A stretch of 33,277 nt of DNA from FCB group bacterium (GCA_024231695.1 JAAEQF010000099.1:1-33277); one strand, 5' to 3'; positions 2,357-15,252 are shown, counted from the stretch's first letter. Numbers and translations are program-made. The notes: generated from the sequence alone by a model not told the origin.

Positions 2357-2393
2357 AAAAGTAAAAACCAGCCGCCGGTTTTATGCGGCGACT
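2357..2393 (-). terminator. Candidate intrinsic terminator/attenuator between the major tail gene and G
   Basis: The minus-strand RNA reads AGUCGCCG-CAUAAAAC-CGGCGGCU, an 8-bp stem with one G.U pair, followed by GGUUUUUACUUUU. Confidence 0.4.
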
Positions 2394-2408
2394 GACCTTG
2401 TCGGGTGA

Positions 2409-2840
2409 TTACGTTGCGGCCGTCCAGTCGGGTGCAGTCTCCGCGCCTGTGCTGGAATGCACGTTCGTCGGGATGATTGTGAAATCACCAGTCGGCATTT
2501 CGCCTTCCGTCAATTCGCCCGGCGTGAATTCGTTAAGGAATCCATAAAACGCATACGTCGACGTATCGGGGAATGTGATCGTGATTAGCTGGTTCGTGCC
2601 AATCATTGCAAGCAGGTCATCATACGATTCAGTGTCGTACGCCGACGTGCCAGACGCTTCAGTCGAAGTCTTGAGCGACTTAGGCGCAAACGTGCGGTAG
2701 GTCGTGTTGCTCATTGTCGTGGTGTCAATCGAGCCCTCGCCGGAAAGCCCGGGTGGGGTGATTGATACATGATAGAGCTTAGTTGTCGTGGCCGTCGCAA
2801 ACGTGATTGTTGTCTGGAAGCCATCTTCGAGTTTAGCCAT
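2409..2840 (-). CDS. Major tail (tube) protein
   Basis: A 143-aa Thr/Ser-rich beta-type protein immediately upstream of G/G-T, with the composition typical of siphovirus major tail proteins. A terminator-like hairpin follows it. Confidence 0.7.
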   Translation of the reverse strand: MAKLEDGFQTTITFATATTTKLYHVSITPPGLSGEGSIDTTTMSNTTYRTFAPKSLKTSTEASGTSAYDTESYDDLLAMIGTNQLITITFPDTSTYAFYGFLNEFTPGELTEGEMPTGDFTIIPTNVHSSTGAETAPDWTAAT

Positions 2841-2938: not shown

Positions 2939-3379
2939 CTAATTTTTTGAAGCGGTCATAACTCCGTTGACGGAATGGAATTTTCGTCCACGGCCTTCTG
3001 GTTCTGCACCGATGTCCAATATCTGCCCGGTTCGTGAAAGGTTCTGTAGTGTGTAGGTCGAGCCGTCGACCGTTACTTCCGTCCTGAATACCGCGTCAAT
3101 GACGTTGGCTATGTCGTTTGCTTTTGCCCTGCCAGCAGACCGATTCCGAGAACGGACCATAATTTGAAACCCTGGATGCTCGATGTGCTCGCCTGTGTCA
3201 ATGACGCGGCCGTCAGTCCGCCCTGCCGTGTCGTAACAGACGATTGCGTCATCGTTGATATCGTCCGAGTCTGGTAAAAACGTCGCGTACACGGGCCATG
3301 CGTTGCCGCCTTGGACGGACGTGCCGAGACCTGCGTCAATCAGGAATTTCTGCACCAGTCTGGATTGTTCAATGTCCAT
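2939..3379 (-). CDS. Putative tail terminator / tail completion protein (lambda U-like position)
   Basis: A 146-aa protein directly preceding the major tail gene, called by synteny only. Confidence 0.4.
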   Translation of the reverse strand: MDIEQSRLVQKFLIDAGLGTSVQGGNAWPVYATFLPDSDDINDDAIVCYDTAGRTDGRVIDTGEHIEHPGFQIMVRSRNRSAGRAKANDIANVIDAVFRTEVTVDGSTYTLQNLSRTGQILDIGAEPEGRGRKFHSVNGVMTASKN

Positions 3380-3888
3380 TATTTCTTTCTCATCTGTTCC
3401 GCGACTTTAGCAATGTATTTCTTTCGGTTCTCGCGAGCTGGCTTTTCAAGGTATTTATATTGCTGGTTTACACCACGCGTTGCCTTGTGAACCTTGCCTT
3501 TGGCTTTAACTGCACCGGCAGAATCCTCGTCTTTCTTTTTTCCCTTCACGGGCTTTTTGCGTTTGCCTTGTGCTGTCTTTTTTTTGCCTTCTTTTAACTG
3601 GCGATTAAATTCTGCACCGTGCGCTGCGTTCGGGTTCTCATGGACGTAAACCGCATATTTTGCGCTGTACTCGACCGATGCCTCTCTATCAAACCCGCGA
3701 CCTTCAAGCACAGTCTTTCCCGATGCCTTTAGCGGCCCAAGATCAACTGGTACGATCTCTTTGCTGTCGCGCTCTAATTCATTCGCCGCACGTCGCAAGC
3801 CAATCTGTGCATTCCTTGCGTGTCGTTTCTCTGCCGACTTCATGGCATTTAATACGCCGCGTAATCCAGTTACGTTTTTCTTTGCCAT
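3379..3888 (-). CDS. HK97 gp10-family neck/tail-completion protein with a Lys-rich C-terminal extension
   Basis: The N-terminal ~100 aa ('...IVPVDLGPLKASGKTVLEG...YAVYVHEN') resembles the HK97 gp10 family. The C-terminal ~60 aa is Lys-rich (KKKTAQGKRKKPVKGKKK...). Confidence 0.55.
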   Translation of the reverse strand: MAKKNVTGLRGVLNAMKSAEKRHARNAQIGLRRAANELERDSKEIVPVDLGPLKASGKTVLEGRGFDREASVEYSAKYAVYVHENPNAAHGAEFNRQLKEGKKKTAQGKRKKPVKGKKKDEDSAGAVKAKGKVHKATRGVNQQYKYLEKPARENRKKYIAKVAEQMRKK

Positions 3889-3901: not shown

Positions 3902-4255
3902 CTACAGGATCGCCGTTCTCAAAGTGTTGCCGCTCGTTTTTGTCGTTACCCTTAATTTCGGCAACGTCTGAAACTGCCGAATCGGGTACGCGTCTTTGTC
4001 GTCAATCGGAAACGAAGGTGCATCGGCAAGTTCACCTTCCCATAGCAAGCCGCCGATTTCCAAGTCGCGGTCGACATAAACAATGGCTTGCGATACCTGG
4101 TTCTCGCCCTGGCCATCTATAAAGCGAACTGCGTCGGTTTCCCATCTGCACGGGATTCCGACGCCAGCCGCGAAGGATTGTTCGCCAAGCGAATCATAGC
4201 CATTCGGCGCGTAATAAACGGCCGTCTGCGTTCGCATTGAGGTAATTAAACCCAT
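3902..4255 (-). CDS. Putative head-tail joining protein (gp9/FII-like position)
   Basis: A 117-aa protein upstream of the gp10-like gene, called by synteny and size. Confidence 0.4.
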   Translation of the reverse strand: MGLITSMRTQTAVYYAPNGYDSLGEQSFAAGVGIPCRWETDAVRFIDGQGENQVSQAIVYVDRDLEIGGLLWEGELADAPSFPIDDKDAYPIRQFQTLPKLRVTTKTSGNTLRTAIL

Positions 4256-4266
4256 TGGTTACGATC

Positions 4267-4599
4267 CTACAGGGTGAAAACGCCGATTGTTACCGTGGTC
4301 GTCACTGAACACGTCACGGTTGCGATTCCGCCGGAGACGCCGCCTGTGGAATACGTCCCAACAGGGAACGGGCCAATCAGTCGAGACTCGCCGGCAGGAA
4401 CCGCAACTATCCTGTCGTCTACGTCGAGCCCGTCGACGGTTTTAGGCGTTGCAATTGTCACGTTGATCGAGCCGCCGCTGCCGTTGGCGACCTCGATAAA
4501 TTCACGCCCGGTATTCGCGAACGTGTCCGATGCTGCAACCGCCGACAATACAGGCGAAAGCCCGCTACTTGCGATCTGTTGCGCTGTGAGTGATGCCAT
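4267..4599 (-). CDS. Small virion-associated protein; paralog of the N-terminal domain of the esterase spike
   Basis: 'AASDTFANTGREFIEV...INVTIATPKTVDGLDVDD...VPAGESRLIGPF' aligns with 'AASGDTFSNFGRKFFILF...VVVTIKTEKVFDGDLELEDQEFTVPALGRRLAGPF' at the start of the 6342-8993 protein. Confidence 0.5.
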   Translation of the reverse strand: MASLTAQQIASSGLSPVLSAVAASDTFANTGREFIEVANGSGGSINVTIATPKTVDGLDVDDRIVAVPAGESRLIGPFPVGTYSTGGVSGGIATVTCSVTTTVTIGVFTL

Positions 4600-4603
4600 T
4601 TAA

Positions 4604-4831
4604 TCAGGTCTCCTTTTTGGTTTCTACTTGCGAAATTTCGTTTGATTCTGCCGATACTTCAATCGGCTTGAATTTCGGTTTCTGTCTCGTGATCCGTACC
4701 GCTGTTACGTCGCATGACTCCTGCTCGAAAAGGGTTGCACCTTTGAGCTTGGGAACGATGCCTCGAATCGCATCGGCCACGGCTTTGCGGTTGATTGGTC
4801 TGACGTATAGTGTTTTTTGTGCGTGGCTCAT
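4604..4831 (-). CDS. Hypothetical small protein (75 aa), basic C-terminus
   Basis: Its first 8 codons (MSHAQKTL) and RBS region are near-identical to those of the next gene upstream. Confidence 0.4.
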   Translation of the reverse strand: MSHAQKTLYVRPINRKAVADAIRGIVPKLKGATLFEQESCDVTAVRITRQKPKFKPIEVSAESNEISQVETKKET

Positions 4832-4833
4832 AT

Positions 4834-5019
4834 CTATCTCGCTTCAACTAGCTTTGATGGATTTTCCCAAGTGCCGTCTTCGTCGTTCCAGCCCCATCCG
4901 TTACTTTCAAAATCTTGCGTTTCTTCCTCTGTCAGTTTCTTGCCGTGAAGACACAAGTAAAGAGCGTCGGTAACAATACGCCTGTTTTCTTCGCTCAGTG
5001 TTTTTTGTGAGTGGCTCAT
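4834..5019 (-). CDS. Hypothetical small protein (61 aa), acidic/Trp-rich C-terminus
   Basis: It begins MSHSQKTL, sharing a start region with 4604-4831. Confidence 0.4.
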   Translation of the reverse strand: MSHSQKTLSEENRRIVTDALYLCLHGKKLTEEETQDFESNGWGWNDEDGTWENPSKLVEAR

Positions 5020-6335
5020 TATTTGTACTCCGGTGTGACGTAGGAAGTGGGTGTTCCAGCCCCGTCGTCGCTATGGGTTACCGTGTGCCCTGTGCCTACT
5101 ACTGCGAAACCGCCTGTTGTTTCTGCCTCTGCTGATGTCATTACGATGTTGTACTCTGGCGAATCACCCGGCGTGTCCGCAAGGTAATCACCACCCATGT
5201 AATTCGCTCTGTCAACTGCGTCCATTGCGTATGTTTTGAATATACCGAAGTCTTTGAGTGTGCCGTCGAGATATCCACCGCTATTCCTGTCGAAACCGAG
5301 TATCAACGAGCTAGTGAATGCAATCGCATCAATAATGCCAACCGTCGTCGTTGCGGGTGTCGTGGGGTCGTCAACATAGAGGTTGAAGTCCGCCCCGTCC
5401 CGACTGAGTATTAGTGAATGCCAGTCGGTGTCGTCTACCGAATCCGAGAATAATTGCGTGTCGTGGCCATCGCCGTCCTCTATCCTGACCCTGACTTTAC
5501 CGCCATTGACGCCATCGTCGCTCTCTATGACATAGCAATGTAATGAATGATTTGCCCCCGCTGCCCCAATGCTGAATAAATAACTGTGGTCTGTCCCGTG
5601 ACTGTTCAATTTGAACCGAATCGCCACCGACCAGTCGCCGTCTTGCAACTGCATGTCTGTACTGGCAGTTCCAGTCGTATACGAATTCGTTCCGTCATAC
5701 CCCCACCCCTGAACACAATATTCATCTCGCATCGCGGTCATCGCTTCGGAAACCTGTGCGTCGGAAAGAGCGTAGTCGTAGAAGGCAATGGTAGGGATGT
5801 TGCCGGTGAAGGGGGAAGACGGACCCGAGTCGAGCCCGCCAAAAAAAGTCACAGCAGACACCAAGTCCACATCGTAATTACTCGAATTAAATGTTGCGTC
5901 TTCGTCGGGATTGCTTGCGTTATCTACATATAGGTAAGCACTGCCCCCGGCCCCTTCATTGACGATACAAATGATAAGTTTATTGCCTTCGATATTTGCA
6001 ATGCTTTTGGTGCATTGCCCGATAGTATCTCCATTGGAGTCGTATTGGCGAACGCGAATGTATCCAGAACTGCCCGCCTTACAGTAAATGTCAAACGCCG
6101 AATCATCATTCTTCGCTCGCAGAATATATGGGTACGCCTCTGTCTGCACTCCCCCCTCTACCACCATCATCACCGTACTCGCCTGTTTACCACCCAGTAT
6201 CTTACCCAAATCAGCCGATGCCATGACATCACCGCCGTCAAAAGACATAGCGTCTTTGCGGTTCCATCGCATTGTGGCTTCGAGGATGGTGGGGCATTTA
6301 GCGGAAGTCGATTGCTTGAAATTATAGTCGGACAT
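5019..6335 (-). CDS. Fibre/receptor-binding-like protein with two concanavalin/LamG-like domains
   Basis: Two beta-sandwich regions carry LamG-type signatures ('DGDWSVAIRFKLNS...DWHSLILSRDGADFNLYVDD', 'LKDFGIFKTYAMD'). Confidence 0.6.
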   Translation of the reverse strand: MSDYNFKQSTSAKCPTILEATMRWNRKDAMSFDGGDVMASADLGKILGGKQASTVMMVVEGGVQTEAYPYILRAKNDDSAFDIYCKAGSSGYIRVRQYDSNGDTIGQCTKSIANIEGNKLIICIVNEGAGGSAYLYVDNASNPDEDATFNSSNYDVDLVSAVTFFGGLDSGPSSPFTGNIPTIAFYDYALSDAQVSEAMTAMRDEYCVQGWGYDGTNSYTTGTASTDMQLQDGDWSVAIRFKLNSHGTDHSYLFSIGAAGANHSLHCYVIESDDGVNGGKVRVRIEDGDGHDTQLFSDSVDDTDWHSLILSRDGADFNLYVDDPTTPATTTVGIIDAIAFTSSLILGFDRNSGGYLDGTLKDFGIFKTYAMDAVDRANYMGGDYLADTPGDSPEYNIVMTSAEAETTGGFAVVGTGHTVTHSDDGAGTPTSYVTPEYK

Positions 6336-6341
6336 GATGCT

Positions 6342-8993
6342 TTAAGCTCCCTCGTTTGCCAAGTTAGTAAGTTCTGTGACTCTGGCTCCGTCGTCGCTGC
6401 CTGTTATGTTGGCGTTGGTGACTGTTAAACCGTCGATAGTGTGTGCGCCGTCTGAAGAAGTGGCGTCTGTCATTGGGATGTAAACATCGGGCGAAGCACC
6501 TGAAACGTCGTCGGGCGAACCGTTTGCAACGAGACTGGCAAGTTCTGTGCCGGAAATGGCTCTGTCGTTGAAAATAGCGAAGTCTCGGAGCGAGCCTGCG
6601 AAGTAACGCGACGCTCCATCGCAACGATTGCCAAATGTCACAACACCCTCATTGCCAGCAGACACATCAATCCCGTCCACCGCTGCGTCAGTTGCATTCC
6701 ACCCTGTGCCTGCTATACCGTCTAAGTAGCCTGTAAATGTATTTCCTGACCGGATAACTGCGACATGATGCCAGTCAGTGTCCGAAGCAGGCGATTCAGT
6801 GCAAGCAATTTCGACGTAATCGCCGCCGCCGTCAGAAACCGTAAATTTCAACGTGCCGTCAACTTCAGCCCAAAGGTTAAACGAATTGGCATTTGGTGGT
6901 GCATCGCCCATCGACACGCAATAACGCAACGCCGCGCCAGTATTTCCGTTGAATCTAACCCAGGTAACAATCGACCAATCGCCATCTGGTAAATCCAATG
7001 TCGTATCACCGGGGTCGCTCACCGTCGCCACACTATTCGTCCCATTAAACTCCCAGCTTCCGCCGTCCAGTGTCGCTACTTCCGCCTTCGCATAGTAAGC
7101 GGGGAAAAGGGCTTGTATGGTGTCGCCCGGCTTGCCGAAACGTGATCCGAGGTATTTAAATAACGCGGACAATTCAGCGTCGCTCATCGCTACGCCAGTG
7201 ACTCCAAGGAATGCTAGCCCGCCGCCTTCCATTTCGTAGCCCGATCCGTCCATCGAGAAAATGTAAACGTCCGCTCCACCGAGGTCAACCGTGTCCCCTG
7301 TCTTATTATACCCGGCAACAGTCTCTTTATTGGCAATATCGTTCATCACCAAGTCGGCGGAACCGCCGTCGCCGCCATGATTGCGGTAAACGAGGTATGT
7401 TGTTGGCAGGTCTGGCCCGTCGTTAGGTGCATTACTCGTGACGGTCATTGGGTAGCCGCTTGCGTCGTGGTACTGCCTTGCGCTTATTTGGTGAGTCACC
7501 GGGCCTACGCCAGAGCGGCCATTGCCAAGTCTGAAATCCGAATTGCCGTTGACCGATCGCATGATTGCATTGTATTCGTTGACGTTACCGCCGCCGTCAA
7601 GTGCGAAAACAAAAGTGCATGTTCGGAATGCGCTTAAATAGAAATCAAAGATGTCCGACTTGACGTTCGTGTTCGCTGGGAACGCGGCGAACTGCTCGCC
7701 ACCGAATCGGCTGCCTGTCGTCGCCACCGGTTTGTGGCTGGAGTCGATTATAAGCGAATTTGCCCCGTCTGTGTCAGTCCATGTGGTTATGTCACCATCG
7801 GCACCGAAGCCCGTGTTGTCGTAAACACGAGCCATCGTGGGGCAGTCAAAGTCTTGGTTAATCAGCTTAGCACCCATTGCCAAACCAAGGGCTAGGTAGC
7901 CGGCGGTCGAATAATGAACGCCCGTGTCTTCCATGTCATCTGTGTTGACCCACCAACTGGCCTCAGGGAAGTCGATGCAAACTTGAATTTGTGCGGCCCT
8001 GACTACAGTCTCGTAAGCACGTCCAGAAAGCTCAACATTAGTCAGGCCTACGATAAACGGACTGGTTCCTATTGACCACGTTGAGTGGTTCGTAGTGGAT
8101 CGCATGTTGGCAATGAGTGCTGTCAAGTTGGCGTAATAAGCAGCCGAATCGTCAGCTCGCTCGGCGTCTTCCTCACCCTGCATCCAGAACATGCCGTCGA
8201 TGGTGTACTCAACAGGTATTGCAGCAATAGCCGCATCGGTTTTCTGCACGAAGTCGTAAATCGGGAAGCTTGGAGATGTGTTCGTAGCAATGTGGGCAAT
8301 ATTCCACGTTGCGTTGCCAGCAAGGTCTTGCATTAATCCCGTAGACCCAATGGCATGCTTAATCAGGTAGATGTCTTCTGCTGGGTATTCATTAGTAAGT
8401 GCGTGAGCAATCCCGACTTCCGGGCCAAAGACGGCTGAGTCGTTCGGGTCATAGCTAATCCATGCTGAACCATTCCACATCTTCACACGGCCGAGTGCTT
8501 GATCGTAAGGGGACTCCAGGTCGGCTGTCGTGCCGCTACCGACCATGTTCGACTGCCCTGCAAGCAAAAACACTTTTGCTGGGTATGCTGGGTATGCTGG
8601 TAGTTGCGTCGACAAATCGAGCGCACAAATATTCAACCCCGTTGCGTCGTCGTAAGTAACGTTAATATTCGAGTTGTCGTTATTGTACGGGCTCCGCGAG
8701 AAAGGGCCTGCTAACCTGCGGCCGAGTGCCGGAACGGTAAATTCCTGATCTTCCAATTCGAGATCGCCGTCGAAAACTTTTTCTGTTTTGATCGTGACAA
8801 CAACCTCACCAGCCGTCGACTCAAAAAGAATAAAGAACTTCCGACCGAAATTTGAAAACGTATCACCGCTAGCCGCCGCCGCCGTCATTGTTGGATTGAG
8901 ACCTTCAGCGGTAACAGATTGCTTGTCAACAGTCGTGGCCATTGCGCCATCAAAGCTGTCGTCGAAGCTTTCGTCAAATGATTCGTAATACAT
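6342..8993 (-). CDS. Spike protein: N-terminal anchor domain, SASA/SGNH-type carbohydrate O-acetylesterase domain and C-terminal LamG domain
   Basis: 'KVFLLAGQSNMVGSG' is the catalytic GQSNM motif of the sialate-O-acetylesterase/DUF303 family. The C-terminus has LamG signatures ('GDWSIVTWVRF...WHHVAVIRSGNTFTGYLDG', 'LRDFAIFNDRAISGTEL'). The start was set at the ATG at 8993, which has an AGAGGGAAA RBS just after the upstream stop; the track start at 9017 is TTG. Confidence 0.8.
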   Translation of the reverse strand: MYYESFDESFDDSFDGAMATTVDKQSVTAEGLNPTMTAAAASGDTFSNFGRKFFILFESTAGEVVVTIKTEKVFDGDLELEDQEFTVPALGRRLAGPFSRSPYNNDNSNINVTYDDATGLNICALDLSTQLPAYPAYPAKVFLLAGQSNMVGSGTTADLESPYDQALGRVKMWNGSAWISYDPNDSAVFGPEVGIAHALTNEYPAEDIYLIKHAIGSTGLMQDLAGNATWNIAHIATNTSPSFPIYDFVQKTDAAIAAIPVEYTIDGMFWMQGEEDAERADDSAAYYANLTALIANMRSTTNHSTWSIGTSPFIVGLTNVELSGRAYETVVRAAQIQVCIDFPEASWWVNTDDMEDTGVHYSTAGYLALGLAMGAKLINQDFDCPTMARVYDNTGFGADGDITTWTDTDGANSLIIDSSHKPVATTGSRFGGEQFAAFPANTNVKSDIFDFYLSAFRTCTFVFALDGGGNVNEYNAIMRSVNGNSDFRLGNGRSGVGPVTHQISARQYHDASGYPMTVTSNAPNDGPDLPTTYLVYRNHGGDGGSADLVMNDIANKETVAGYNKTGDTVDLGGADVYIFSMDGSGYEMEGGGLAFLGVTGVAMSDAELSALFKYLGSRFGKPGDTIQALFPAYYAKAEVATLDGGSWEFNGTNSVATVSDPGDTTLDLPDGDWSIVTWVRFNGNTGAALRYCVSMGDAPPNANSFNLWAEVDGTLKFTVSDGGGDYVEIACTESPASDTDWHHVAVIRSGNTFTGYLDGIAGTGWNATDAAVDGIDVSAGNEGVVTFGNRCDGASRYFAGSLRDFAIFNDRAISGTELASLVANGSPDDVSGASPDVYIPMTDATSSDGAHTIDGLTVTNANITGSDDGARVTELTNLANEGA

Positions 8994-9006
8994 TCCGTTT
9001 CCCTCT

Positions 9007-9873
9007 TTAGTCGTCAACTAAAATCAAATCGAAACCGGCGACACAGCTCATCGTGTCGGACGCAGCCACAAGCTTGACTCTTACATCTGTTTTTTCGGGA
9101 ATAGGACCGGCTGGTATTCCATATTCGTACTGCCAATGTGATGAACCAATATTCACTAATCCGACATGACCTTTGACTTGCCATGCACCGTTCGCTCCGT
9201 TATTGGCTCTCATTAACCATTGGAAACTGCCGTCCTCGCCGCCTTTGTTGTCGTTCATCAGGCCGACATATCCCTTGATGAAATATGCGGACTTCCCTGC
9301 TGGCACTGTATAGATCGCCTGTTGCGTCTGGCCCTCGCCGTCTGCAATAAAAATCGCAACAGTGGCCGCACCTTTTATTTCAACCGTGATATCACCCGCG
9401 TTTGTCTTTCCGCTTCCTGCCTCGGAAACAAAAGCTCGAAACATGCGAATGTATTTATTATCAAGATCAACAGCAGTCCCGCCTTTCAGTTCTTTGGTCT
9501 CCGATATTTCTTCCCAGTTTTCATCGAGACCGAAGACGGTAACAGACCTCGCACCTGTCCCCGCTGCGGTATCAGCGGCCTCCGTGGACTGGATGTCCAT
9601 TGACTGCGCGGTTGCCGGATAAAACGCATAGACGCCATCTCCTGCCCATATATCATCGCCAGCGGTTGCCGTTGCGTTATGCCCGAATTTATTCATTGAC
9701 GCATGGCCGGGAATATTTCCTTTGGCAACGTCGAGGTAAAATGCTGGAGAGTTTTTTGCTACTGCTTGATAGTATTTCAGCGAATCCGAATCGCTTTGCC
9801 CGAAGATAAACGGGAGTTGAATCGCTGCCAAAAATGCAATGGCGAAAATTACTAAGTAGTGTTTGGTTTTCAT
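9007..9873 (-). CDS. Secreted protein (N-terminal signal peptide), beta-rich
   Basis: 'MKTKHYLVIFAIAFLAAIQLPFIFGQSDSD' is a typical Sec signal peptide, and the rest is Gly/Val/Ala-rich. Confidence 0.5.
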   Translation of the reverse strand: MKTKHYLVIFAIAFLAAIQLPFIFGQSDSDSLKYYQAVAKNSPAFYLDVAKGNIPGHASMNKFGHNATATAGDDIWAGDGVYAFYPATAQSMDIQSTEAADTAAGTGARSVTVFGLDENWEEISETKELKGGTAVDLDNKYIRMFRAFVSEAGSGKTNAGDITVEIKGAATVAIFIADGEGQTQQAIYTVPAGKSAYFIKGYVGLMNDNKGGEDGSFQWLMRANNGANGAWQVKGHVGLVNIGSSHWQYEYGIPAGPIPEKTDVRVKLVAASDTMSCVAGFDLILVDD

Positions 9874-9891
9874 CGTAAAGCCCTTTCGTTG

Positions 9892-10989
9892 TTATGCTGT
9901 CGGCCAAGAAACTTCTGTTAATTCGATTCTTGCGACCCACCGAACGGTATCGCCGCCAGATGTCGAGTCTTTAACTTGAATCAGGAATGCGTCTAGGTCA
10001 GCCCCGTCGACGGCAACCTGTGCATCAAAATCGGTATCGTCGGTGTCATAGACGGTCGTCACCGTACTTGCGGGAATTGATACCGTACCGCTGTCGTTTT
10101 TGGCGATTCCAGAGATGTTGAAAGCGAATACTTTCCCGACGTTGGCGGTTGTCCCTGTGATGTTGATGTTGAAATTCCAAACGGTATCATTGACAAGCAT
10201 GTTGATTCGCTGCGTTTGCAATAAGAGCAAGTCATGCCAGGATGAATCGCTGTGTGTAATCGACTCGCTTGCAACCAGCACACTTGTCTGTGCGTCGCCT
10301 CTATTTGTAAATGACCTACACGCATGAGCATGCTGGGCATATTTGTCTGCCAGTGAGTTGCGTCCAATTGCAATGCAATAATCACCAGTAGCGGAGCTTC
10401 CGTAGCCGCCAACAACGGCCGAGTAATCACCAGAAATGTCGTTCGACGTACCGCCAATAATGGCCGAAAAATCACCACTTACTTCGTTAAATTCACCACC
10501 AGTAACCCCGGACGAACGGCCCGTGACTGTATTGTCGTTTCCGCCGAGGCAAGAAGATTTCGTGCCAGACACTACGTTGTCGTAACCTCCGAGAACAGTA
10601 GCGTAACTTCCTGACAGCGTCTGCCTAGTGCCAGCCTTAATCACCCCCGTAATCTCTACATTGCCGGAAAAATATCCATCCTTCCACCTGGCCGCATCCG
10701 TGCCGAGGTCGTGAGTGTCCGTCGCAACTGGAGTCAGGTTACCGGTCACTTCTCCCGTTATAATTATGTCGTCAACGTAAAGTGCCGACCATTCATAACT
10801 CGCGGACCCGAGATCATAAGTGTCGTTCATTGTCGGCACATTGTTTGCACCGCCCGTGACAACAACCATCGTTGCAGGATCGAACATTGTGACGATCCAG
10901 TCACGGCATTTCTGCGCGGTAATGCCCTTGCGTGGAAGCTCTGCAAATGCGGTCGTAAGATATGACTGACTGCGAACTGTATCGGCCAT
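9892..10989 (-). CDS. Fibre-like protein with a beta-helix repeat region
   Basis: It carries at least 7 consecutive repeats of approximate form xxGGxxNxVSG(xxS) ('VLGGYDNVVSG', 'CLGGNDNTVTG', 'VTGGEFNEVSG', 'IIGGTSNDISG', 'VVGGYGSSATG'). Confidence 0.5.
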   Translation of the reverse strand: MADTVRSQSYLTTAFAELPRKGITAQKCRDWIVTMFDPATMVVVTGGANNVPTMNDTYDLGSASYEWSALYVDDIIITGEVTGNLTPVATDTHDLGTDAARWKDGYFSGNVEITGVIKAGTRQTLSGSYATVLGGYDNVVSGTKSSCLGGNDNTVTGRSSGVTGGEFNEVSGDFSAIIGGTSNDISGDYSAVVGGYGSSATGDYCIAIGRNSLADKYAQHAHACRSFTNRGDAQTSVLVASESITHSDSSWHDLLLLQTQRINMLVNDTVWNFNINITGTTANVGKVFAFNISGIAKNDSGTVSIPASTVTTVYDTDDTDFDAQVAVDGADLDAFLIQVKDSTSGGDTVRWVARIELTEVSWPTA

Positions 10990-11004: not shown

Positions 11005-11403
11005 TTATAAGTCTTCTGTCGAAGTGCCCAACCACGAGACGCTTGCCGTTTTCGACACTCCGTCAATGATCTTTTTATTGTGGCGAGCAAGTGCGCCTGT
11101 TGTATCGAGGCTCAATGCCATCTGGCCATATCGAGTTTGATTCAGTGCGAGGTCAATTTTATAGTCAAACGATTCAGAAACAGAACCCGCTTTTTCGGCA
11201 GACGCACGAGGTTTGTAAATGGCATAAAAGTGAGCCGCAAGCCATGTTTCGATAACGGCCAATGTCGCTGTTGCCGTTCCTGATTCGCCAAGGATATCCG
11301 TTACCAAAATGTTTGCAGCATCAATAAACGCGTCCAGGTCGTCGCCTGAATCCACGTCAATAATCTTGCCGATTTCGGTTGCGTCTGTTCGTGCCATTTT
11401 CAA
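11005..11403 (-). CDS. Putative head-tail connector / head completion protein
   Basis: A 132-aa protein at the gp6-like position downstream of the capsid genes; the N-terminus resembles connector-family proteins. Confidence 0.4.
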   Translation of the reverse strand: MKMARTDATEIGKIIDVDSGDDLDAFIDAANILVTDILGESGTATATLAVIETWLAAHFYAIYKPRASAEKAGSVSESFDYKIDLALNQTRYGQMALSLDTTGALARHNKKIIDGVSKTASVSWLGTSTEDL

Positions 11404-11789: not shown

Positions 11790-12875
11790 TTATGTGTAAG
11801 TTCCGAGTACGATTCCGGACTTTCCACCAAATTCAGACCGGACGCGTGGAACCTTCAAAGCCATGACCTTGAAGTTCTTTTGCATGCCGCCAAGTGTATC
11901 CCACTGGACGGTCATAAAATCGATGCCGTTGACGACCTGAACAACGTTGGAGGTCGTCTGGACAAGCAACATAGTCTTGGTTGTCATGTGGTCGGCAATA
12001 ATAACATCCTGAACGCTCGAAATCTTTTTAATCCGTTCGAGAAGGGTTCCGTCGCCCTTGGATGTCGAATAATCAGAATCAAGGAACGGCGCCCAACTTG
12101 GTGCGGCGTAAATTACGAACGGGCCGTAATGATTGTCCGCTTGGGCTTTCGTTATCATATCGAGGATTTCAGTAATGGTCGTTTCACCATTCGATCCGGT
12201 TGGCGTCGTCATATTCTTGGTGTTGTTGTCCGTATGGTTTGCCAACCCGTAGACGTTGCCGCCACCGAACTGGTAAGTGCCATAAACACCAAGAACCAAC
12301 TTTTCAACAGTCTCTGCAACTTTGCGACCGGCAAGTTCAATCATGCCGGAATCAATCGGAAGGCCGCCGTTGTTAACCGCGTTGATTTCGCGGATGTTAA
12401 AGTGGAAGTCCTTGTGAGCAATCGGCAGCGGCAGAGTTGTGGTATCGAACTCTTGCCGATCCGCAGCCGTTGATCGTCTGGCATCCATGCTCAGGTCAGC
12501 ATCGCTAATATCCGATGCAGTCTGTGAAATTAACACTGGTGTCCCGAGTGCGTTTTGGATGTTGTAAACCAATCCGCGAGACTCCAGATCGGATACGACC
12601 CTCAGCCTTTCCTGTGCCGCCTGAATGACGATATTGTCAATCGATTTCCAAGCATCGTAAGTCAGTGTCGCGGCATTGTGTGTCGGAACTGTTTCAACGT
12701 TGAAAGTTCCTTCCGTTGAATTGAACGTCGAGATACGGTTAATGTACGACTGACCGCCGGGAATGTCCATGTACGGCCGCAACGAAAGCGGGTCCATGTT
12801 ATTCGCGGCGAGCAAGTCGGCAACCGCACAGTTGCCTTGCGGCTGTCCGTTAATAATGAAGTCTGTTTCCATCAT
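11790..12875 (-). CDS. Major capsid protein (lambda gpE-like family)
   Basis: A 361-aa protein with lambda-like gene order (protease/scaffold, decoration, capsid). The C-terminal segment '...IDFMTVQWDTLGGMQKNFKVMALKVPRV' resembles E-type capsid proteins. A strong terminator lies immediately downstream. Confidence 0.75.
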   Translation of the reverse strand: MMETDFIINGQPQGNCAVADLLAANNMDPLSLRPYMDIPGGQSYINRISTFNSTEGTFNVETVPTHNAATLTYDAWKSIDNIVIQAAQERLRVVSDLESRGLVYNIQNALGTPVLISQTASDISDADLSMDARRSTAADRQEFDTTTLPLPIAHKDFHFNIREINAVNNGGLPIDSGMIELAGRKVAETVEKLVLGVYGTYQFGGGNVYGLANHTDNNTKNMTTPTGSNGETTITEILDMITKAQADNHYGPFVIYAAPSWAPFLDSDYSTSKGDGTLLERIKKISSVQDVIIADHMTTKTMLLVQTTSNVVQVVNGIDFMTVQWDTLGGMQKNFKVMALKVPRVRSEFGGKSGIVLGTYT

Positions 12876-12925: not shown

Positions 12926-13852
12926 TTAAGCGACGATGCCTTCGATGAAGGAAACAGCCGATGTGGTTGTAACTGCCTCGGAAGCTTCCAAGACAACGGT
13001 GGTCGGATCGGTGCGGAGCAACTCGACAGACAGGTCATCAAGTGCGACCTGGTTGTCTGCGTGTGACACGGATGCGGTTGCAGCAACGTCAACAGTAAGG
13101 TCTGCTGTCGTCGTGTCGATCGCGGTGGAAGGAAGTGCAAAGACAACTGCCGTTGCAGTACCGTCAACACCAAATGCGGTAGTACCGCCAGCAACCATCG
13201 TGCCAGAAGCACCAACGGTTCGGATTGTGATCTCGGCCTCGATCAGACCGGTATCATTGTCCGTGATGTTGAGAGCTGCCGTTGCGATAATGGTCGTGCC
13301 ACCGAGTCGCAACGTCAATGCGACGGTGTCCGTGCTGTTCGCTTTAATGACATTCACGCGGGCTTTGATTCGCAGCTTGTCGCCAGCTTTTAGGAATCCT
13401 TTCGGAATGTCATAGTCAACATCAAACGCGGCAATTGTCGTCCAGGTGTGCATGGTCGTCGAAGATGCAACGTTCTGAAAAAGCAACTCAGCCGCCTGGT
13501 CCGCAACGATCAAAGTACCGTCGCCACCGGAAATAAGGTTCGATCCAATAACGGCCGTTTGATTCAGGCCGAGGACCGATTGCACTCGGTTACCTGGCGG
13601 GATGTACGCAAGTGACACAATGTCGTCGGCTGCGTATGCAGTGTCAACATTATCGCCTTGCAGTGAATCTTCACGGGCAAACAAACGCATGTGAGCGCCG
13701 CCTGTGGAGCTATGTGCTTGCACTTTTCCGGCTGAAGTCTTTTCGCAAAGATAGCCGGGCGAGATCGCAGCAACGGCAAGGAGCTCTTCCGTCCTGCTGT
13801 TATTATCGAGGTCAATTGTGTTATAACTACTCATTTTTATGCCTCCGGGCAA
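12926..13852 (-). CDS. Putative head decoration protein (gpD-like N-terminus) with a Thr/Ala/Val-rich beta C-terminal extension
   Basis: It sits between the scaffold and capsid genes. The N-terminal ~110 aa are Ala/Gly-rich like the decoration-protein D family. Confidence 0.45.
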   Translation of the reverse strand: MPGGIKMSSYNTIDLDNNSRTEELLAVAAISPGYLCEKTSAGKVQAHSSTGGAHMRLFAREDSLQGDNVDTAYAADDIVSLAYIPPGNRVQSVLGLNQTAVIGSNLISGGDGTLIVADQAAELLFQNVASSTTMHTWTTIAAFDVDYDIPKGFLKAGDKLRIKARVNVIKANSTDTVALTLRLGGTTIIATAALNITDNDTGLIEAEITIRTVGASGTMVAGGTTAFGVDGTATAVVFALPSTAIDTTTADLTVDVAATASVSHADNQVALDDLSVELLRTDPTTVVLEASEAVTTTSAVSFIEGIVA

Positions 13853-13890: not shown

Positions 13891-15252
13891 CTACGCCTTC
13901 GGCTTGAGTGTCGTCGGAATCCCGAGCGTTCTCGGTTGCGATCCGGACTGGTTGCCAGTTGGAGCCGTTGCGCTGCCGTAGTAATTCGGCTTGGCTGCCT
14001 TTACTGGTTCTGCGTTGGTGGCAAAGTCAGCCATCGTCTGCAAAACGCCATCTTCAAGAGTTGCAAGGTATTCGGCCGATGCCTTATTGCCTTTGTTCGC
14101 AACAATCGCGTCAATCATCGACTGCCGATTTGCCTCATTTGCGGCAATGCCGTTGCGAATAACAGCTTGCATTTTCGGATCCGCTTTTGCAAGCAATTCC
14201 TCGAATGTCGGCTGCGATTCATTTGATACCGGCAGCTCTTCTTTTTGCACTGGCGGTACTGCTGGTGGCGTCTCTTTGTTGGAAACGACCTCTGTTGCGA
14301 CGGGTGTGAATTTCTTCAGTTGACCGTCTTCCATGTTCGTGAGGAAATCTCGATCTTCCTCTGTCCAGGCAGTCGCTTCATTGGCGATTAAGGCCGAGAC
14401 AATTTCGGTTTTTTCGGTTGCTTTTCCCATTTGTTCTTGTTCCTTTTCTTGGGTAACATTATCGACCATATCGCCGAGAGGCCGGTATTCAACGACCTTT
14501 TCAACTTCAGTTGATTCGCCTTTTAGTGTGGCATCATTTTCGCCGATGGTATAATTCATCTTGAAATAATCGCCGTCCACTTCGTAAATTAAGTAGTCGT
14601 CGAAAACCTCACTGATCCAAGCACGTTCGCCGTAACGATCAAAAACGGATTGCCTCAACTTGTCGCGGATGCCGTCATGTGAAAGCTGGTTTGCCTGCAT
14701 GAGGCCAGCACCATCTGCAATCGAGCAACTGCCTTTTTGATCCGGCAAGATTGCCAAGTGATCCGGGCGGAAGTTCGTTGCGACGTGGCTGTATTTCTTG
14801 CCGTTCCATGTTCCGGGGGATTGTAGTGCGTCCGTAAAAAGACCAGTTGATACCTCCATGAGCTTATTGCTGTTGACCGCAAGTAAGACGCGATCATCGA
14901 CTGCTTCAAGCTTTTCAGGATCGAGCCAAGCCTCTGCGCGAAGCTTGCCCGCTTTCTTGTCGTACTTGGTGTTTAGAATGACGCCGACCTGCTGCGTCTC
15001 GATTATTTCTTTCGAGCAAGCAGACACACCTAATCCGTTTTTCGTTGGGTGATAAACGACAATTGGCTTGGCATCCCATGACTGTGGCGTCTTCTTTAAT
15101 TCAGACGGAGAGTAGTACAAAGGACCGTTCGATCCATTGTGTACACCCTCGGTAATCATAACCATAGGCACTACTAAATACGGCTTGCCGTCAAGCGTAT
15201 CGTGTCGCACTTTTTGCGTACTTGCGTTGAGCGAAATTCTGCAAAATAACAT
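13891..15252 (-). CDS. Putative prohead protease/scaffold fusion (DUF2213-like N-domain, Ala/Glu-rich C-terminal half)
   Basis: The N-terminal ~200 aa ('GKPYLVVPMVMITEGVHNGSNGPLYYSPSEL...WDAKPIVVYHP') resemble a phage head-gene family. The C-terminal ~200 aa are charged, low-complexity and scaffold-like. Its position between MuF and the decoration/capsid genes fits. Confidence 0.45.
   Translation of the reverse strand: MLFCRISLNASTQKVRHDTLDGKPYLVVPMVMITEGVHNGSNGPLYYSPSELKKTPQSWDAKPIVVYHPTKNGLGVSACSKEIIETQQVGVILNTKYDKKAGKLRAEAWLDPEKLEAVDDRVLLAVNSNKLMEVSTGLFTDALQSPGTWNGKKYSHVATNFRPDHLAILPDQKGSCSIADGAGLMQANQLSHDGIRDKLRQSVFDRYGERAWISEVFDDYLIYEVDGDYFKMNYTIGENDATLKGESTEVEKVVEYRPLGDMVDNVTQEKEQEQMGKATEKTEIVSALIANEATAWTEEDRDFLTNMEDGQLKKFTPVATEVVSNKETPPAVPPVQKEELPVSNESQPTFEELLAKADPKMQAVIRNGIAANEANRQSMIDAIVANKGNKASAEYLATLEDGVLQTMADFATNAEPVKAAKPNYYGSATAPTGNQSGSQPRTLGIPTTLKPKA

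What the first reader, a model, noticed from the sequence alone, without database searches (positions are those of the whole stretch)
4267..10989. Fibre/esterase gene cluster inserted between head-completion and neck genes: candidate neck or head appendages
The connector-like gene (11005-11403) is followed by a beta-helix-repeat fibre protein, a secreted protein, an SASA-esterase/LamG spike, a tandem-LamG fibre, two tiny genes and a small anchor-domain paralog. Only then do the gp9-like, gp10-like and terminator-like neck genes and the major tail gene appear. Tail fibres of siphoviruses are normally encoded after the tape-measure gene. A fibre cluster at the head-neck junction recalls the neck-passage/collar-whisker genes of some lactococcal phages, or head fibres. 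The distal-tail genes lie outside the window, so these may be additional adhesins mounted on the neck or capsid.
Basis: inference. Interest (0 to 1): 0.6.

Follow-up and report, generated by a model that had tools for sequence, protein, structure and literature searches.

The report
Sugar-binding appendage genes in phage neck
An uncultivated long-tailed phage carries, among its head-to-tail joining genes, seven genes for a fibre, a sugar-deacetylating enzyme and sugar-binding proteins, most likely extra appendages at the neck or top of the tail; similar appendages are known in dairy phages, so this is a new version of a known idea.

Summary
Seven tightly packed minus-strand genes (4267-10989) lie between a probable head-tail adaptor (11005-11403) and the conserved 117-aa, Neck1-like, terminator and major tail genes.

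- **Content:** a YadA/UspA1-like beta-roll fibre, a two-jelly-roll protein with a hydrophobic N-terminus, a SASA esterase with two LamG domains, a LamG-LamG protein, two tiny paralogues and a 110-aa beta-sandwich.
- **Paralogy:** the 110-aa protein is a paralogue of the esterase's N-terminal domain.
- **Distant relatives** (capsid about 43% identical): adaptor and 117-aa gene are adjacent. Multi-kb cassettes with LamG or sialidase-like genes sit at other neck junctions. Twice a sugar-binding domain is fused to the tail terminator.
- **Closer relatives** (about 70%): a smaller cassette at the same junction, fibre plus two small beta-sandwich genes.
- **Another phage:** the fibre module is fused to a head-completion protein.
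- **One relative** has a full lambda-like tail tip after the tape-measure gene.

Best reading: accessory glycan-binding and deacetylating appendages on the neck or proximal tail, analogous to lactococcal neck-passage structures but with an unrelated docking domain. Location is inferred, not shown. Tail-tube decoration is the main rival. I rate it a new variant of a known kind, of moderate interest.

The parts
11005..11403 (-). Probable head-tail adaptor (132 aa); upstream boundary of the cassette
   Evidence: Weak matches only: DUF4054, E 0.0075 (below cut-off), phrog_37884, E 1.2e-6, and phrog_302, E 5.5e-5. Conserved in the relatives whose contigs cover this region, where the 117-aa gene homologue follows directly. 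A family profile finds nothing in the PDB.
9892..10989 (-). 365-aa fibre protein: lineage-specific N-terminal ~115 aa, YadA/UspA1-like beta-roll (~116-230), conserved C-terminal ~135-aa domain
   Evidence: PF21300, E 3.2e-8, and UspA1 3pr7, E 3.2e-8. There are 218 homologues, all sharing the beta-roll plus C-terminal domain; none of the 119 listed matches the N-terminus. P0088 fuses this module to a Phage_HCP domain. The L037 orthologue is 63% identical.
9007..9873 (-). 288-aa protein: hydrophobic N-terminal helix plus two beta jelly-roll domains; widely mobile, highly conserved family (phrog_8198)
   Evidence: phrog_8198, E 7e-47. At least 283 homologues at 50-66% identity. The AF2 model has pLDDT 88 and only weak fold matches. 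Genomic contexts: after the terminator in a siphophage, among tail genes in podo- and myophages, and next to the neck and terminase genes in T4-like cyanophages, where S-SCSM1 labels it 'virion protein'. It is absent from the close relative L037.
6342..9017 (-). Esterase-lectin protein (891 aa from TTG 9017; 883 aa from ATG 8993): N-terminal 110-aa-family beta-sandwich (~24-140), SASA carbohydrate esterase (147-386, GQSN motif), two LamG-like domains (~461-826), short C-terminal tail
   Evidence: PF03629, E 2.9e-22, PF13385, E 1.1e-16, and phrog_16194 on residues 26-136. The A1 profile hits residues 26-135 at E 1.8e-35. In L037 the N-domain is a stand-alone 133-aa gene, 53% identical over residues 11-139.
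5019..6335 (-). 438-aa tandem LamG protein, paralogue of the C-terminal half of the esterase protein
   Evidence: Laminin_G_3, E 2.4e-15, in two stretches. BLASTP against esterase residues 461-878 gives 27% identity, E 9e-21.
4834..5019 (-). 61-aa ORF, paralogue of the next ORF; function unknown
   Evidence: Shares a 23-nt 5' end with 4809-4831 at 96% identity. BLASTP E 3e-6. No family match.
4604..4831 (-). 75-aa ORF, paralogue of the 61-aa ORF; function unknown
   Evidence: No family match.
4267..4599 (-). 110-aa stand-alone beta-sandwich protein (phrog_16194 family); putative docking or collar subunit
   Evidence: phrog_16194, E 2.7e-17. AF2 pLDDT 94.6. The fold is generic. The family has 6262 clusters, nearly all stand-alone; where fused, the domain is N-terminal. 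Neighbours are mostly tail-tube, terminator and chaperone genes. Orthologues lie next to the 117-aa gene in L033, L034, L037 and L038.
3902..4255 (-). 117-aa conserved neck-module gene (position of a head-closure protein); downstream boundary of the cassette
   Evidence: Conserved next to the adaptor in every distant relative that covers the region. No Pfam, PHROG or PDB match, and hhalign against Phage_HCP is negative.
3379..3888 (-). 169-aa Neck1 / HK97 gp10-like tail-completion protein
   Evidence: phrog_5, E 3e-6; conserved synteny.
2939..3379 (-). 146-aa tail terminator
   Evidence: PF12691, E 9.8e-10. Homologues in L008 and L021 carry LamG or CBM96 fusions.
2409..2840 (-). 143-aa major tail protein (by position and conservation), followed by a strong hairpin at 2399-2364
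   Evidence: Conserved in relatives directly upstream of the chaperone and tape-measure genes. Hairpin. No Pfam hit.

Best explanation
The block 4267-10989 is an accessory virion-appendage cassette, co-transcribed with the head-tail joining genes of an uncultivated siphophage.

**Proposed parts.**
- A fibre with a beta-roll shaft and a conserved distal domain (365 aa); a trimer is expected by analogy with UspA1/YadA heads.
- A small beta-sandwich docking subunit present twice: once alone (110 aa) and once as the N-terminus of a large protein that carries a SASA-type O-acetyl esterase and two LamG lectin domains.
- A second LamG-LamG protein, a two-jelly-roll protein and two tiny proteins of unknown role.

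**Proposed location and function.** The docking subunits and the fibre's lineage-specific N-terminus attach to the ring proteins at the neck or uppermost tail (head-completion protein, terminator, first tube ring). This would form a collar with protruding glycan-binding and deacetylating modules. These give weak, multivalent, reversible binding to capsule, LPS or exopolysaccharide, and remove O-acetyl groups. That would help first contact or passage through the glycan layer before the tail tip engages its receptor.

**Shown.** Gene content, domain identities, paralogies, insertion relative to distant relatives, a conserved smaller core in close relatives, and fusions of the same domain types to neck proteins elsewhere.

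**Inferred.** Virion incorporation, the mounting site, oligomeric state, enzyme activity and the role in adsorption.
For: 1. **Part of the late structural operon.** Packing is tight, there are no own promoter or terminator signals, and composition matches the flanks.
2. **Fibre module fused to a neck protein.** The beta-roll plus C-terminal module of the 365-aa protein (residues 117-361) occurs fused to a Phage_HCP head-completion domain (PF05521, E 8e-20). That gene sits between the adaptor and the gp10-like and terminator genes of another phage.
3. **Sugar-binding domains fused to the terminator.** In relatives of this phage, LamG_3 is fused C-terminally (L008, 530 aa) and CBM96 N-terminally (L021, 323 aa) to the PF12691 tail terminator.
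4. **A lineage-wide habit.** Eight relatives carry 2-7 kb cassettes inside the neck module, or what remains of one on a truncated contig. They lie at Neck1|terminator or terminator|major tail gene, and those annotated include LamG or BNR-sialidase-like genes.
5. **A conserved core.** Close relatives keep a smaller cassette at the same junction: fibre, a stand-alone orthologue of the esterase N-domain, and the 110-aa orthologue. The N-domain is therefore an independent unit that gained a payload in the window.
6. **Behaviour of the 110-aa family.** It has 6262 clusters. It is N-terminal whenever fused. It lies within two genes of recognised tail-tube, terminator or chaperone genes: 27 of the 33 Pfam family matches among 122 neighbour proteins were to such families. 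In phiSASD1, REQ1 and Shagrat it lies between the adaptor and the major tail gene.
7. **The tip is already equipped in a relative.** L023 has a tailspike, a gpL-like and a gpJ-like protein after the tape-measure gene, so neck cassettes are additional there.
8. **Precedent.** The 936-group nps gene lies upstream of mtp, its product was immunolocalised to the neck, and NPS proteins have CBM, beta-helix or esterase-like C-termini (PMC4759559, PMC6669499).
Against: - There is no physical evidence of location or of virion incorporation.
- Its most frequent neighbours are tail-tube genes, and in several phages it follows the major tail gene, once as three tandem copies. That fits tube decoration as well as a collar.
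- The fusions come from other phages or from distant relatives whose cassettes lack the 110-aa domain.
- The 288-aa protein has a signal-like hydrophobic N-terminus, as do 39 of the 120 listed family members (the window's own copy included). That is odd for a cytoplasmically assembled virion part.
- That family also occurs in distal-tail gene clusters.
- The window's own distal tail is not on the contig.
Confidence: 0.5

Rival explanations
1. Tail-tube decoration. The 110-aa beta-sandwich binds the major tail protein rings along the tail. The long esterase-LamG version is incorporated at some of these sites. The result would resemble the MTP extensions (TpeX) of 936 phages or the Ig-like domains on lambda gpV and SPP1 gp17.1*.
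For: In 34 non-redundant IMG/VR loci, 15 neighbour proteins within two genes of the family gene matched recognised tail-tube families, 7 matched terminators and 5 matched chaperones. The family gene directly follows the major tail gene in L014, L018/L019 (three tandem copies) and MW202777. A short and a long paralogue side by side recall the short and extended MTP pairs (PMC4759559, PMC6669499).
Against: In the window and its close relatives the family genes lie four genes upstream of the major tail gene, next to the adaptor side of the neck module. In phiSASD1, REQ1 and Shagrat they also precede the major tail gene. The fusions found involve single-ring proteins (head-completion, terminator), not tube proteins.
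Confidence: 0.2
2. Displaced distal tail fibres. The proteins are ordinary side fibres or spikes attached to the tail tip, and are merely encoded away from the other tip genes.
For: The 288-aa family lies among tail-fibre genes in a SU10-like podophage and at the end of a myophage tail module. A further 110-aa family copy follows distal tail genes in L016 and L018. The window's own tip genes are unknown.
Against: A relative has a full tip set with a pectate-lyase tailspike and a gpJ-like central fibre. Cassette domain types are fused to neck proteins, not to Dit-, Tal- or J-type proteins. The cassettes stay within the neck module across the whole lineage.
Confidence: 0.13
3. Not virion parts, or only partly so. 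The cassette would be a moron-like set of exported enzymes and lectins that modify or mask host surface glycans. Possible roles are receptor destruction at release and superinfection exclusion. The 288-aa protein is the clearest candidate.
For: The 288-aa protein has a hydrophobic signal-like N-terminus, as do 39 of the 120 listed family members (the window's own copy included), often followed by a Cys. Its 50-66% identity across unrelated phages is far above the backbone's 43%, which suggests a function independent of any particular virion. An esterase could act as a soluble receptor-destroying enzyme.
Against: Only the 288-aa protein has such an N-terminus. Many family members lack it, and the cyanophage S-SCSM1 record labels its member 'virion protein'. 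The other proteins have typical fibre architecture: a lineage-specific N-terminus and a shared distal module. They sit inside the structural operon without their own signals. The fusions to neck proteins also argue against this reading.
Confidence: 0.1
4. Head fibres or capsid-mounted adhesins. The proteins would attach to the capsid shell, as phi29 gp8.5, T4 Hoc or the RcGTA head spikes do.
For: The cassette follows the capsid and adaptor genes.
Against: No cassette protein matches decoration or capsid-binding families. The family contexts and fusions all involve terminator, tube or head-completion genes. The window has a separate decoration-like gene at 12926-13852 with its own C-terminal extension. 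That gene is the better candidate for capsid display.
Confidence: 0.05

Closest known systems
Neck passage structure (collar-whisker) of lactococcal 936-group (Skunavirus) and P335 phages such as TP901-1
   Same: An accessory, variably present gene in the structural module. In 936 phages it lies upstream of the major tail gene, in a rearrangement hot spot. The product has an N-terminal beta-sandwich proposed to form a ring at the connector and C-terminal carbohydrate-binding, beta-helix or carbohydrate-esterase-like modules. It is an ancillary, low-affinity adhesin, not the primary receptor-binding protein (PMC4759559, PMC6669499).
   Different: - The N-terminal domain here is not BppU-like by fold search.
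- There is no room for a coiled-coil stalk between the N-domain (ends ~140) and the esterase (starts 147).
- The payload is a true SASA esterase domain plus LamG lectins.
- The cassette has seven genes, including a separate beta-roll fibre and a stand-alone copy of the docking domain.
- The source is a marine/FCB-group metagenome bin, not a Gram-positive dairy phage.
- Location is unproven.
Carbohydrate-binding decorations of siphophage tail tubes (936 MTP extension TpeX; Ig-like or FN3 domains on lambda gpV and SPP1 gp17.1*)
   Same: Small beta-sandwich or CBM modules that add weak glycan binding along the virion. A short form and a payload-bearing form coexist (PMC6669499, PMC4759559).
   Different: Those are covalent extensions of the major tail protein made by frameshifting. 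Here the module is a separate gene family, and in the window it is not adjacent to the major tail gene.
Deacetylating tailspikes and fibres (e.g. SGNH-type O-antigen deacetylase gp63.1 of phage G7C; from my own knowledge, not checked here)
   Same: A virion-borne carbohydrate esterase that modifies rather than cleaves the surface glycan during adsorption.
   Different: Those sit at the distal tail as primary receptor-recognising proteins. Here the esterase is of the SASA type, carries LamG domains, and is encoded in the neck module.
Trimeric autotransporter adhesin heads (YadA/UspA1 beta-roll)
   Same: The repeat region of the 365-aa protein matches the UspA1 head (3pr7, E 3.2e-8) and PF21300.
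   Different: There is no membrane anchor or translocator domain. This is a phage protein with a phage-specific C-terminal domain shared by 218 homologues.

Membership tests
Lactococcal-type neck passage structure (NPS) | Accessory gene located in the head-tail joining / major-tail-proximal part of the structural module, variably present among relatives | tested here: met
   The window has 6.7 kb between the adaptor and the 117-aa gene, which are adjacent in the distant relatives that cover both genes. Relatives have cassettes at other neck junctions. Compare the 936 nps gene upstream of mtp (PMC4759559).
Lactococcal-type neck passage structure (NPS) | N-terminal BppU-like beta-sandwich domain that forms the collar ring | tested here: not met
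Lactococcal-type neck passage structure (NPS) | Trimeric coiled-coil stalk between ring domain and distal module | tested here: not met
   From the domain map, the N-domain ends at about residue 140 and SASA starts at 147, so there is no room for a stalk. No coiled-coil predictor was run.
Lactococcal-type neck passage structure (NPS) | C-terminal carbohydrate-binding or carbohydrate-esterase-like modules | tested here: met
   SASA, E 2.9e-22; Laminin_G_3, E 1.1e-16 and 2.4e-15.
Lactococcal-type neck passage structure (NPS) | Physical location between capsid and tail (immunogold EM or cryo-EM) | not testable with these tools
   Only indirect evidence: fusions of the same domain types to head-completion and terminator proteins.
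SASA carbohydrate esterase (PF03629) | Profile match above the curated cut-off over the whole domain | tested here: met
   79.8 bits against a cut-off of 24.8; residues 147-386 cover profile positions 2-225 of 226.
SASA carbohydrate esterase (PF03629) | Nucleophile motif GQSN and a C-terminal catalytic His/Asp pair | tested here: inconclusive
   The sequence shows LLAGQSNMVGSG near residue 153 and ...EDTGVHYS... near residue 365. The Ser motif is intact. The Asp/His spacing was not checked against a structure. Activity is not testable here.
Laminin_G_3 / concanavalin-like lectin (PF13385) | Profile match above the curated cut-off | tested here: met
   61.7 bits (891-aa protein) and 57.4 bits (438-aa protein, two stretches) against a cut-off of 27.6.
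phrog_16194 small beta-sandwich family ('tail protein', no Pfam) | Full-length profile match and shared fold | tested here: met
   110-aa protein: E 2.7e-17. Esterase residues 26-136: E 5.5e-5 against the PHROG and 1.8e-35 against the family profile A1. 6262 clusters in the representative library.
phrog_16194 small beta-sandwich family ('tail protein', no Pfam) | Function as a virion docking or anchor subunit | not testable with these tools
   Supported only by N-terminal placement in fusions, the stand-alone orthologue in L037 and its gene neighbourhood.
Trimeric autotransporter adhesin | YadA-like head repeats plus C-terminal membrane anchor | tested here: not met
   Head-like repeats are present. 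The C-terminal 135 aa is a phage-specific domain shared with 85 of 119 phage or metagenome homologues and is not an anchor.
Tail terminator PF12691 (for 2939-3379) | Profile match above cut-off and position directly upstream of the major tail gene | tested here: met
   39.0 bits against a cut-off of 23.8; synteny.
Head completion protein PF05521 (for 3902-4255) | Profile or profile-profile similarity to Phage_HCP | tested here: not met
   No Pfam hit at E 0.05. hhalign probability 0.2%. No PDB hit with the family profile. Only the gene position agrees.

The most novel reading that the evidence does not exclude
The neck module of this siphophage lineage acts as a plug-in site for adhesins. Glycan-binding or glycan-modifying payloads would be swapped in at shifting junctions. 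They would attach either by direct fusion to ring proteins (terminator, head-completion protein) or through a dedicated docking subunit. The very abundant but unnamed 110-aa beta-sandwich family (over 6000 clusters, no Pfam entry) would be that docking subunit. If so, collar or proximal-tail appendages are a widespread and largely overlooked host-range layer in environmental siphophages, not a lactococcal speciality.
Probability: 0.3. Interest if true: 0.6.

Novelty: new variant of a known kind. Interest (0 to 1): 0.42.

Why it matters
Accessory adhesins away from the tail tip affect how phages find hosts in glycan-rich settings such as capsules, biofilms and marine particles. Host-range prediction usually looks only downstream of the tape-measure gene and so ignores them.

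If this reading is right, it gives three things:
- Sequence markers for such appendages in metagenomic phages: the 110-aa family, and terminator or head-completion proteins fused to lectin domains.
- An example of a carbohydrate esterase delivered on a small docking domain.
- A candidate function for a large, unnamed phage protein family.

It is not a new principle. Lactococcal neck passage structures and tail-tube carbohydrate-binding decorations already establish the concept.

Tried and rejected
- **Nucleotide search.** Megablast of 20 kb against 50,697 phage records found nothing.
- **Prophage relatives.** A scan of GTDB genomes with the capsid protein found none.
- **Circularity.** No terminal repeat, so the missing tail-tip genes cannot be recovered from the contig.
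- **Longer close relatives.** A metagenome scan with the major tail protein gave only short contigs.
- **The 117-aa gene as a head-completion protein.** No Pfam, PHROG or NCBIfam hit, hhalign probability 0.2%, and no PDB profile hit.
- **The adaptor.** A profile search of the PDB gave nothing meaningful.
- **N-terminus of the fibre (1-116) against head-completion proteins.** No similarity. It also matched none of 119 family members.
- **The 288-aa fold.** Foldseek hits had TM about 0.2 (birnavirus VP2, CBM22, parts of gpJ), which is too weak to use.
- **The 110-aa domain in distant relatives' cassettes.** Absent.
- **The tiny 61/75-aa genes.** Tested as homologues of the ~71-aa membrane-like ORF that sits between adaptor and 117-aa gene in relatives. 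They are not.
- **C-terminal extension of the decoration-like protein.** No PDB sequence match.
- **Literature on phiSASD1 gp31.** Nothing usable.
- **A wide family alignment for locus retrieval.** A narrower alignment worked.

Full report
**Where the window comes from.** The window is an entire 33,277-bp contig deposited at NCBI as part of an 'FCB group bacterium' metagenome bin (locus tags GY841_027xx). It has no terminal repeat and no nucleotide-level relative among 50,697 phage records. Nearly all genes are on the minus strand.

The late region, in order of transcription, is:
- portal (20045-21475)
- a Mu-F/SPP1 gp7-like head protein
- protease/scaffold (13891-15252)
- a decoration-like protein (12926-13852)
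- major capsid protein (11790-12875)
- a 102-aa protein
- a probable adaptor (11005-11403)
- the seven genes of the finding
- a conserved 117-aa gene (3902-4255)
- a Neck1/gp10-like gene (3379-3888)
- a PF12691 tail terminator (2939-3379)
- the major tail protein (2409-2840), two chaperone-like genes, and a tape-measure gene that runs off the contig end

**Check of the observation.**
- **365-aa protein.** It has a repeat region that matches the grass antifreeze beta-roll family (PF21300, E 3.2e-8) and the head domain of the adhesin UspA1 (3pr7, E 3.2e-8).
- **288-aa protein.** It belongs to phrog_8198 (E 7e-47) and begins with a strongly hydrophobic helix.
- **891-aa ORF.** The public gene call starts at ATG 8993 and gives 883 aa. 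It has a SASA carbohydrate esterase domain (E 2.9e-22, residues 147-386, with the GQSN nucleophile motif visible in the sequence) and a Laminin_G_3 domain (E 1.1e-16).
- **438-aa protein.** It has two LamG stretches.
- **110-aa protein.** Its family profile matches residues 26-135 of the esterase protein (E 1.8e-35), and the alignment is full-length at 38% identity.

Two further internal duplications emerged. The C-terminal half of the esterase protein (461-878) is paralogous to the whole 438-aa protein (27% identity, E 9e-21). The 61-aa and 75-aa ORFs are weak paralogues with a nearly identical 23-nt start.

Genes are separated by 0-18 nt or overlap. No promoter-like or terminator-like signal brackets the block, and GC content matches the surroundings. 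The block is therefore part of the structural operon.

**Is it an insertion?** I retrieved relatives through the capsid and major tail proteins.

In every distant relative that has both genes on its contig (capsid about 43% identical; nine loci among L005-L022), the adaptor homologue is followed within 0.03-0.3 kb by the 117-aa homologue and then usually the Neck1 homologue. L020 shows the same spacing but holds only the adaptor's end. In several of them a ~71-83-aa ORF fills that gap. The window's 6.7 kb at this junction is therefore extra.

These relatives are not plain, however. Most carry 2-7 kb of variable genes at other junctions of the same module:
- between Neck1 and the terminator in L006, L020 and L022, and after Neck1 in the truncated contigs L005 and L007
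- between the terminator and the major tail gene in L008 and L021, and a single shared 219-aa gene there in L009

Their content includes LamG_3 proteins (L006, L007, L022), a BNR sialidase-like 881-aa protein (L021) and several shared unknown families.

Two of them fuse a sugar-binding domain directly to the tail terminator:
- L008 encodes a 530-aa protein with PF12691 at residues 41-144, repeats, and LamG_3 at 365-518.
- L021 encodes a 323-aa protein with CBM96 at 31-203 and PF12691 at 209-319.

Closer relatives (neck and tail proteins 65-73% identical; L033, L034, L037, L038) show the window's arrangement in smaller form. In L037 the order is:
- an orthologue of the fibre (63% identity over residues 180-365)
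- a stand-alone 133-aa orthologue of the esterase N-domain (53% identity over residues 11-139, including the acidic YESFDESFDDSFD start), which stops after the domain
- the orthologue of the 110-aa gene (61%)
- the 117-aa gene and the rest of the neck module

So the core of the cassette is a fibre plus two small beta-sandwich genes. The window has added the 288-aa gene, an esterase-LamG-LamG payload fused onto one beta-sandwich gene, the LamG-LamG gene and the two tiny genes.

**The distal tail in a relative.** The window's own tip genes are missing. In relative L008/L023 the tape-measure gene is followed by three small genes, a 1055-aa pectate-lyase-type tailspike, a gpL-like protein and a 1061-aa gpJ-like central fibre (phrog_31, E 5e-73). 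In that relative the neck-module lectin is clearly additional to a complete tip.

**The 110-aa family.**
- **Size and architecture.** A profile search of 1.84 billion representative proteins finds 6262 clusters (3371 at E <= 1e-10). Nearly all are stand-alone proteins of 103-123 aa. The few long members have the domain at the N-terminus: 443 aa, 577 aa with PMP-type beta-helix repeats, and the window's own protein.
- **Context in cultured phages.** In Streptomyces phage phiSASD1 the gene lies between the adaptor and Neck1. In Rhodococcus phages REQ1 and Shagrat it lies between the genes annotated as terminator and major tail protein.
- **Context in metagenomic phages.** It directly follows the major tail gene in L014, L018/L019 (three tandem paralogues) and MW202777.
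- **Neighbour census.** I took 34 non-redundant IMG/VR loci and scanned the 122 proteins encoded within two genes of the family gene against Pfam. Matches were 15 to tail-tube families, 7 to Tail_completion_gp17 terminators and 5 to tail chaperones, against 2 to small terminases and 4 to HNH families. A tape-measure-sized ORF lies 2-7 genes downstream in 25 of the 34 loci.

The family therefore belongs to the terminator/tube end of the neck. That fits a docking role at the proximal tail, but it fits decoration of the tube rings equally well.

**The fibre.** The 365-aa family has 218 members. They share the beta-roll and a C-terminal ~135-aa domain that is always at the C-terminus (85 of 119 listed members, 36-56% identity). 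None shares the window's N-terminal 115 residues. This is the usual fibre logic: a lineage-specific attachment end and a horizontally shared distal end.

One member, P0088 (588 aa), has a Phage_HCP head-completion domain (PF05521, E 8e-20, residues 2-102) in place of the N-terminus. Its gene sits between a gp6-like adaptor and the gp10-like and terminator genes of its phage. This is a direct covalent link between the fibre module and a neck ring protein.

**The 288-aa protein.** This family is far more conserved (50-66% identity over at least 283 members) than the phage backbone. It occurs in unrelated virion modules:
- right after the terminator in siphophage L031
- among tail genes of a SU10-like podophage
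- as the last tail gene of a myophage
- next to the portal in two podophages
- between g16 and g17, beside the neck genes, in the T4-like cyanophage S-RSM4
- just upstream of terL, after tail-fibre genes, in S-SCSM1, whose record labels it 'virion protein'

Of the 120 listed family members (the window's own copy included), 39 have a hydrophobic N-terminal segment, often followed by a Cys. Others start at the conserved core or carry long N-terminal extensions. The model shows an N-terminal helix and two jelly-roll domains, with no informative fold match. Its role is unresolved. It is absent from the close relative L037 and is thus an add-on.

**Interpretation.** The best-supported reading is an accessory appendage cassette whose products are mounted at the neck or uppermost tail. 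The components would be a fibre, a docking subunit with and without an esterase-lectin payload, and further lectin proteins. Their function would be weak multivalent glycan binding and O-deacetylation during early adsorption.

Support comes from operon membership, three independent fusions to neck ring proteins, the lineage-wide habit of keeping lectin or enzyme cassettes inside the neck module, the conserved core in close relatives, and a complete tip in a relative.

The lactococcal precedent is close. The 936-group nps gene lies upstream of mtp in a hot spot of rearrangement, and its product was immunolocalised between head and tail (PMC4759559). NPS proteins combine an N-terminal beta-sandwich ring domain with CBM, beta-helix or esterase-like ends and bind host cells weakly (PMC6669499).

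The differences are real. The docking domain here is not BppU-like. There is no coiled-coil stalk. The payload is a true SASA esterase with LamG lectins. The cassette is multigenic.

Location, incorporation, oligomeric state and activity are all inferred.

**Rivals.**
- **Tube decoration** is the strongest rival, because of the family's neighbourhood statistics.
- **Displaced distal fibres** cannot be excluded without the rest of the genome.
- **A non-virion, exported role** is credible mainly for the 288-aa protein.
- **Capsid mounting** has no support. The window's separate decoration-like gene has a C-terminal extension of about 160 aa that is absent in eight relatives. It is the better candidate for head display.

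**Verdict.** This is a new variant of a known kind of system (neck or proximal-tail carbohydrate-binding appendages), found in an environmental siphophage lineage. Its by-products are a large unnamed docking-domain family and terminator-lectin and head-completion-fibre fusions that can serve as markers. Interest is moderate.

Noticed in passing
window 12926-13852 (-): The decoration-like protein (N-terminus matches phrog_766 'head decoration', E 3e-10) is 308 aa here but 141-161 aa in eight relatives. The window's copy therefore carries a C-terminal extension of about 160 aa of unknown fold. It is a candidate capsid-surface display domain, separate from the neck cassette.
   Followed up: partly
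L005-L008, L011 and L013, between the capsid and adaptor genes (e.g. L006:11641-12282); a truncated copy at the start of L022: Relatives carry a conserved ~205-213-aa protein with a weak MptE-like/DUF115-type match (PF01973, E 2.7e-4) between the capsid and adaptor genes. The window lacks it. Relative L023 also has sialyltransferase-like and GT2 glycosyltransferase genes right after its gpJ-like gene. This hints at glycan-modifying enzymes inside structural modules of this lineage.
   Followed up: no
L006:13468-13686, L007:12423-12638, L008:12387-12602, L022:1513-1749: In four distant relatives the short gap between the adaptor and the 117-aa gene holds a ~71-78-aa ORF with a Gly-rich hydrophobic C-terminus, so it looks membrane-like. 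L005 has an unrelated 83-aa ORF there. It is unrelated to the window's 61/75-aa genes. A small membrane-type protein in a neck module is unexplained.
   Followed up: partly
window 4809-4831 and 4997-5019: A 23-nt direct repeat at 96% identity forms the first eight codons (MSH[A/S]QKTL) of both tiny genes. This suggests a recent local duplication or a recombination joint inside the cassette.
   Followed up: partly
window 2364-2399 (-): A strong terminator-like hairpin (14 pairs, T-rich tail) lies directly after the major tail gene. This is the usual place for an attenuator that sets the ratio of tube to later tail proteins.
   Followed up: no
L013:3884-4360 and 4401-4847: One relative has two tandem major-tail-protein paralogues, 41% and 54% identical to the window's copy.
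   Followed up: no
window 9007-9873 (-) and its family (P0291-P0409): The 288-aa family is 50-66% identical across sipho-, podo- and myophage contigs, which is much more conserved than the structural backbone. Its N-termini vary: signal-like, absent, or long extensions. Whether it is exported or a virion part is unresolved.
   Followed up: partly
L018:4369-5389 (also L019:1144-2164): Three tandem 111-aa paralogues of the 110-aa family lie directly after the tail-tube gene, and a fourth copy lies after the distal tail genes. This suggests hetero-oligomeric use of the domain in that phage.
   Followed up: no
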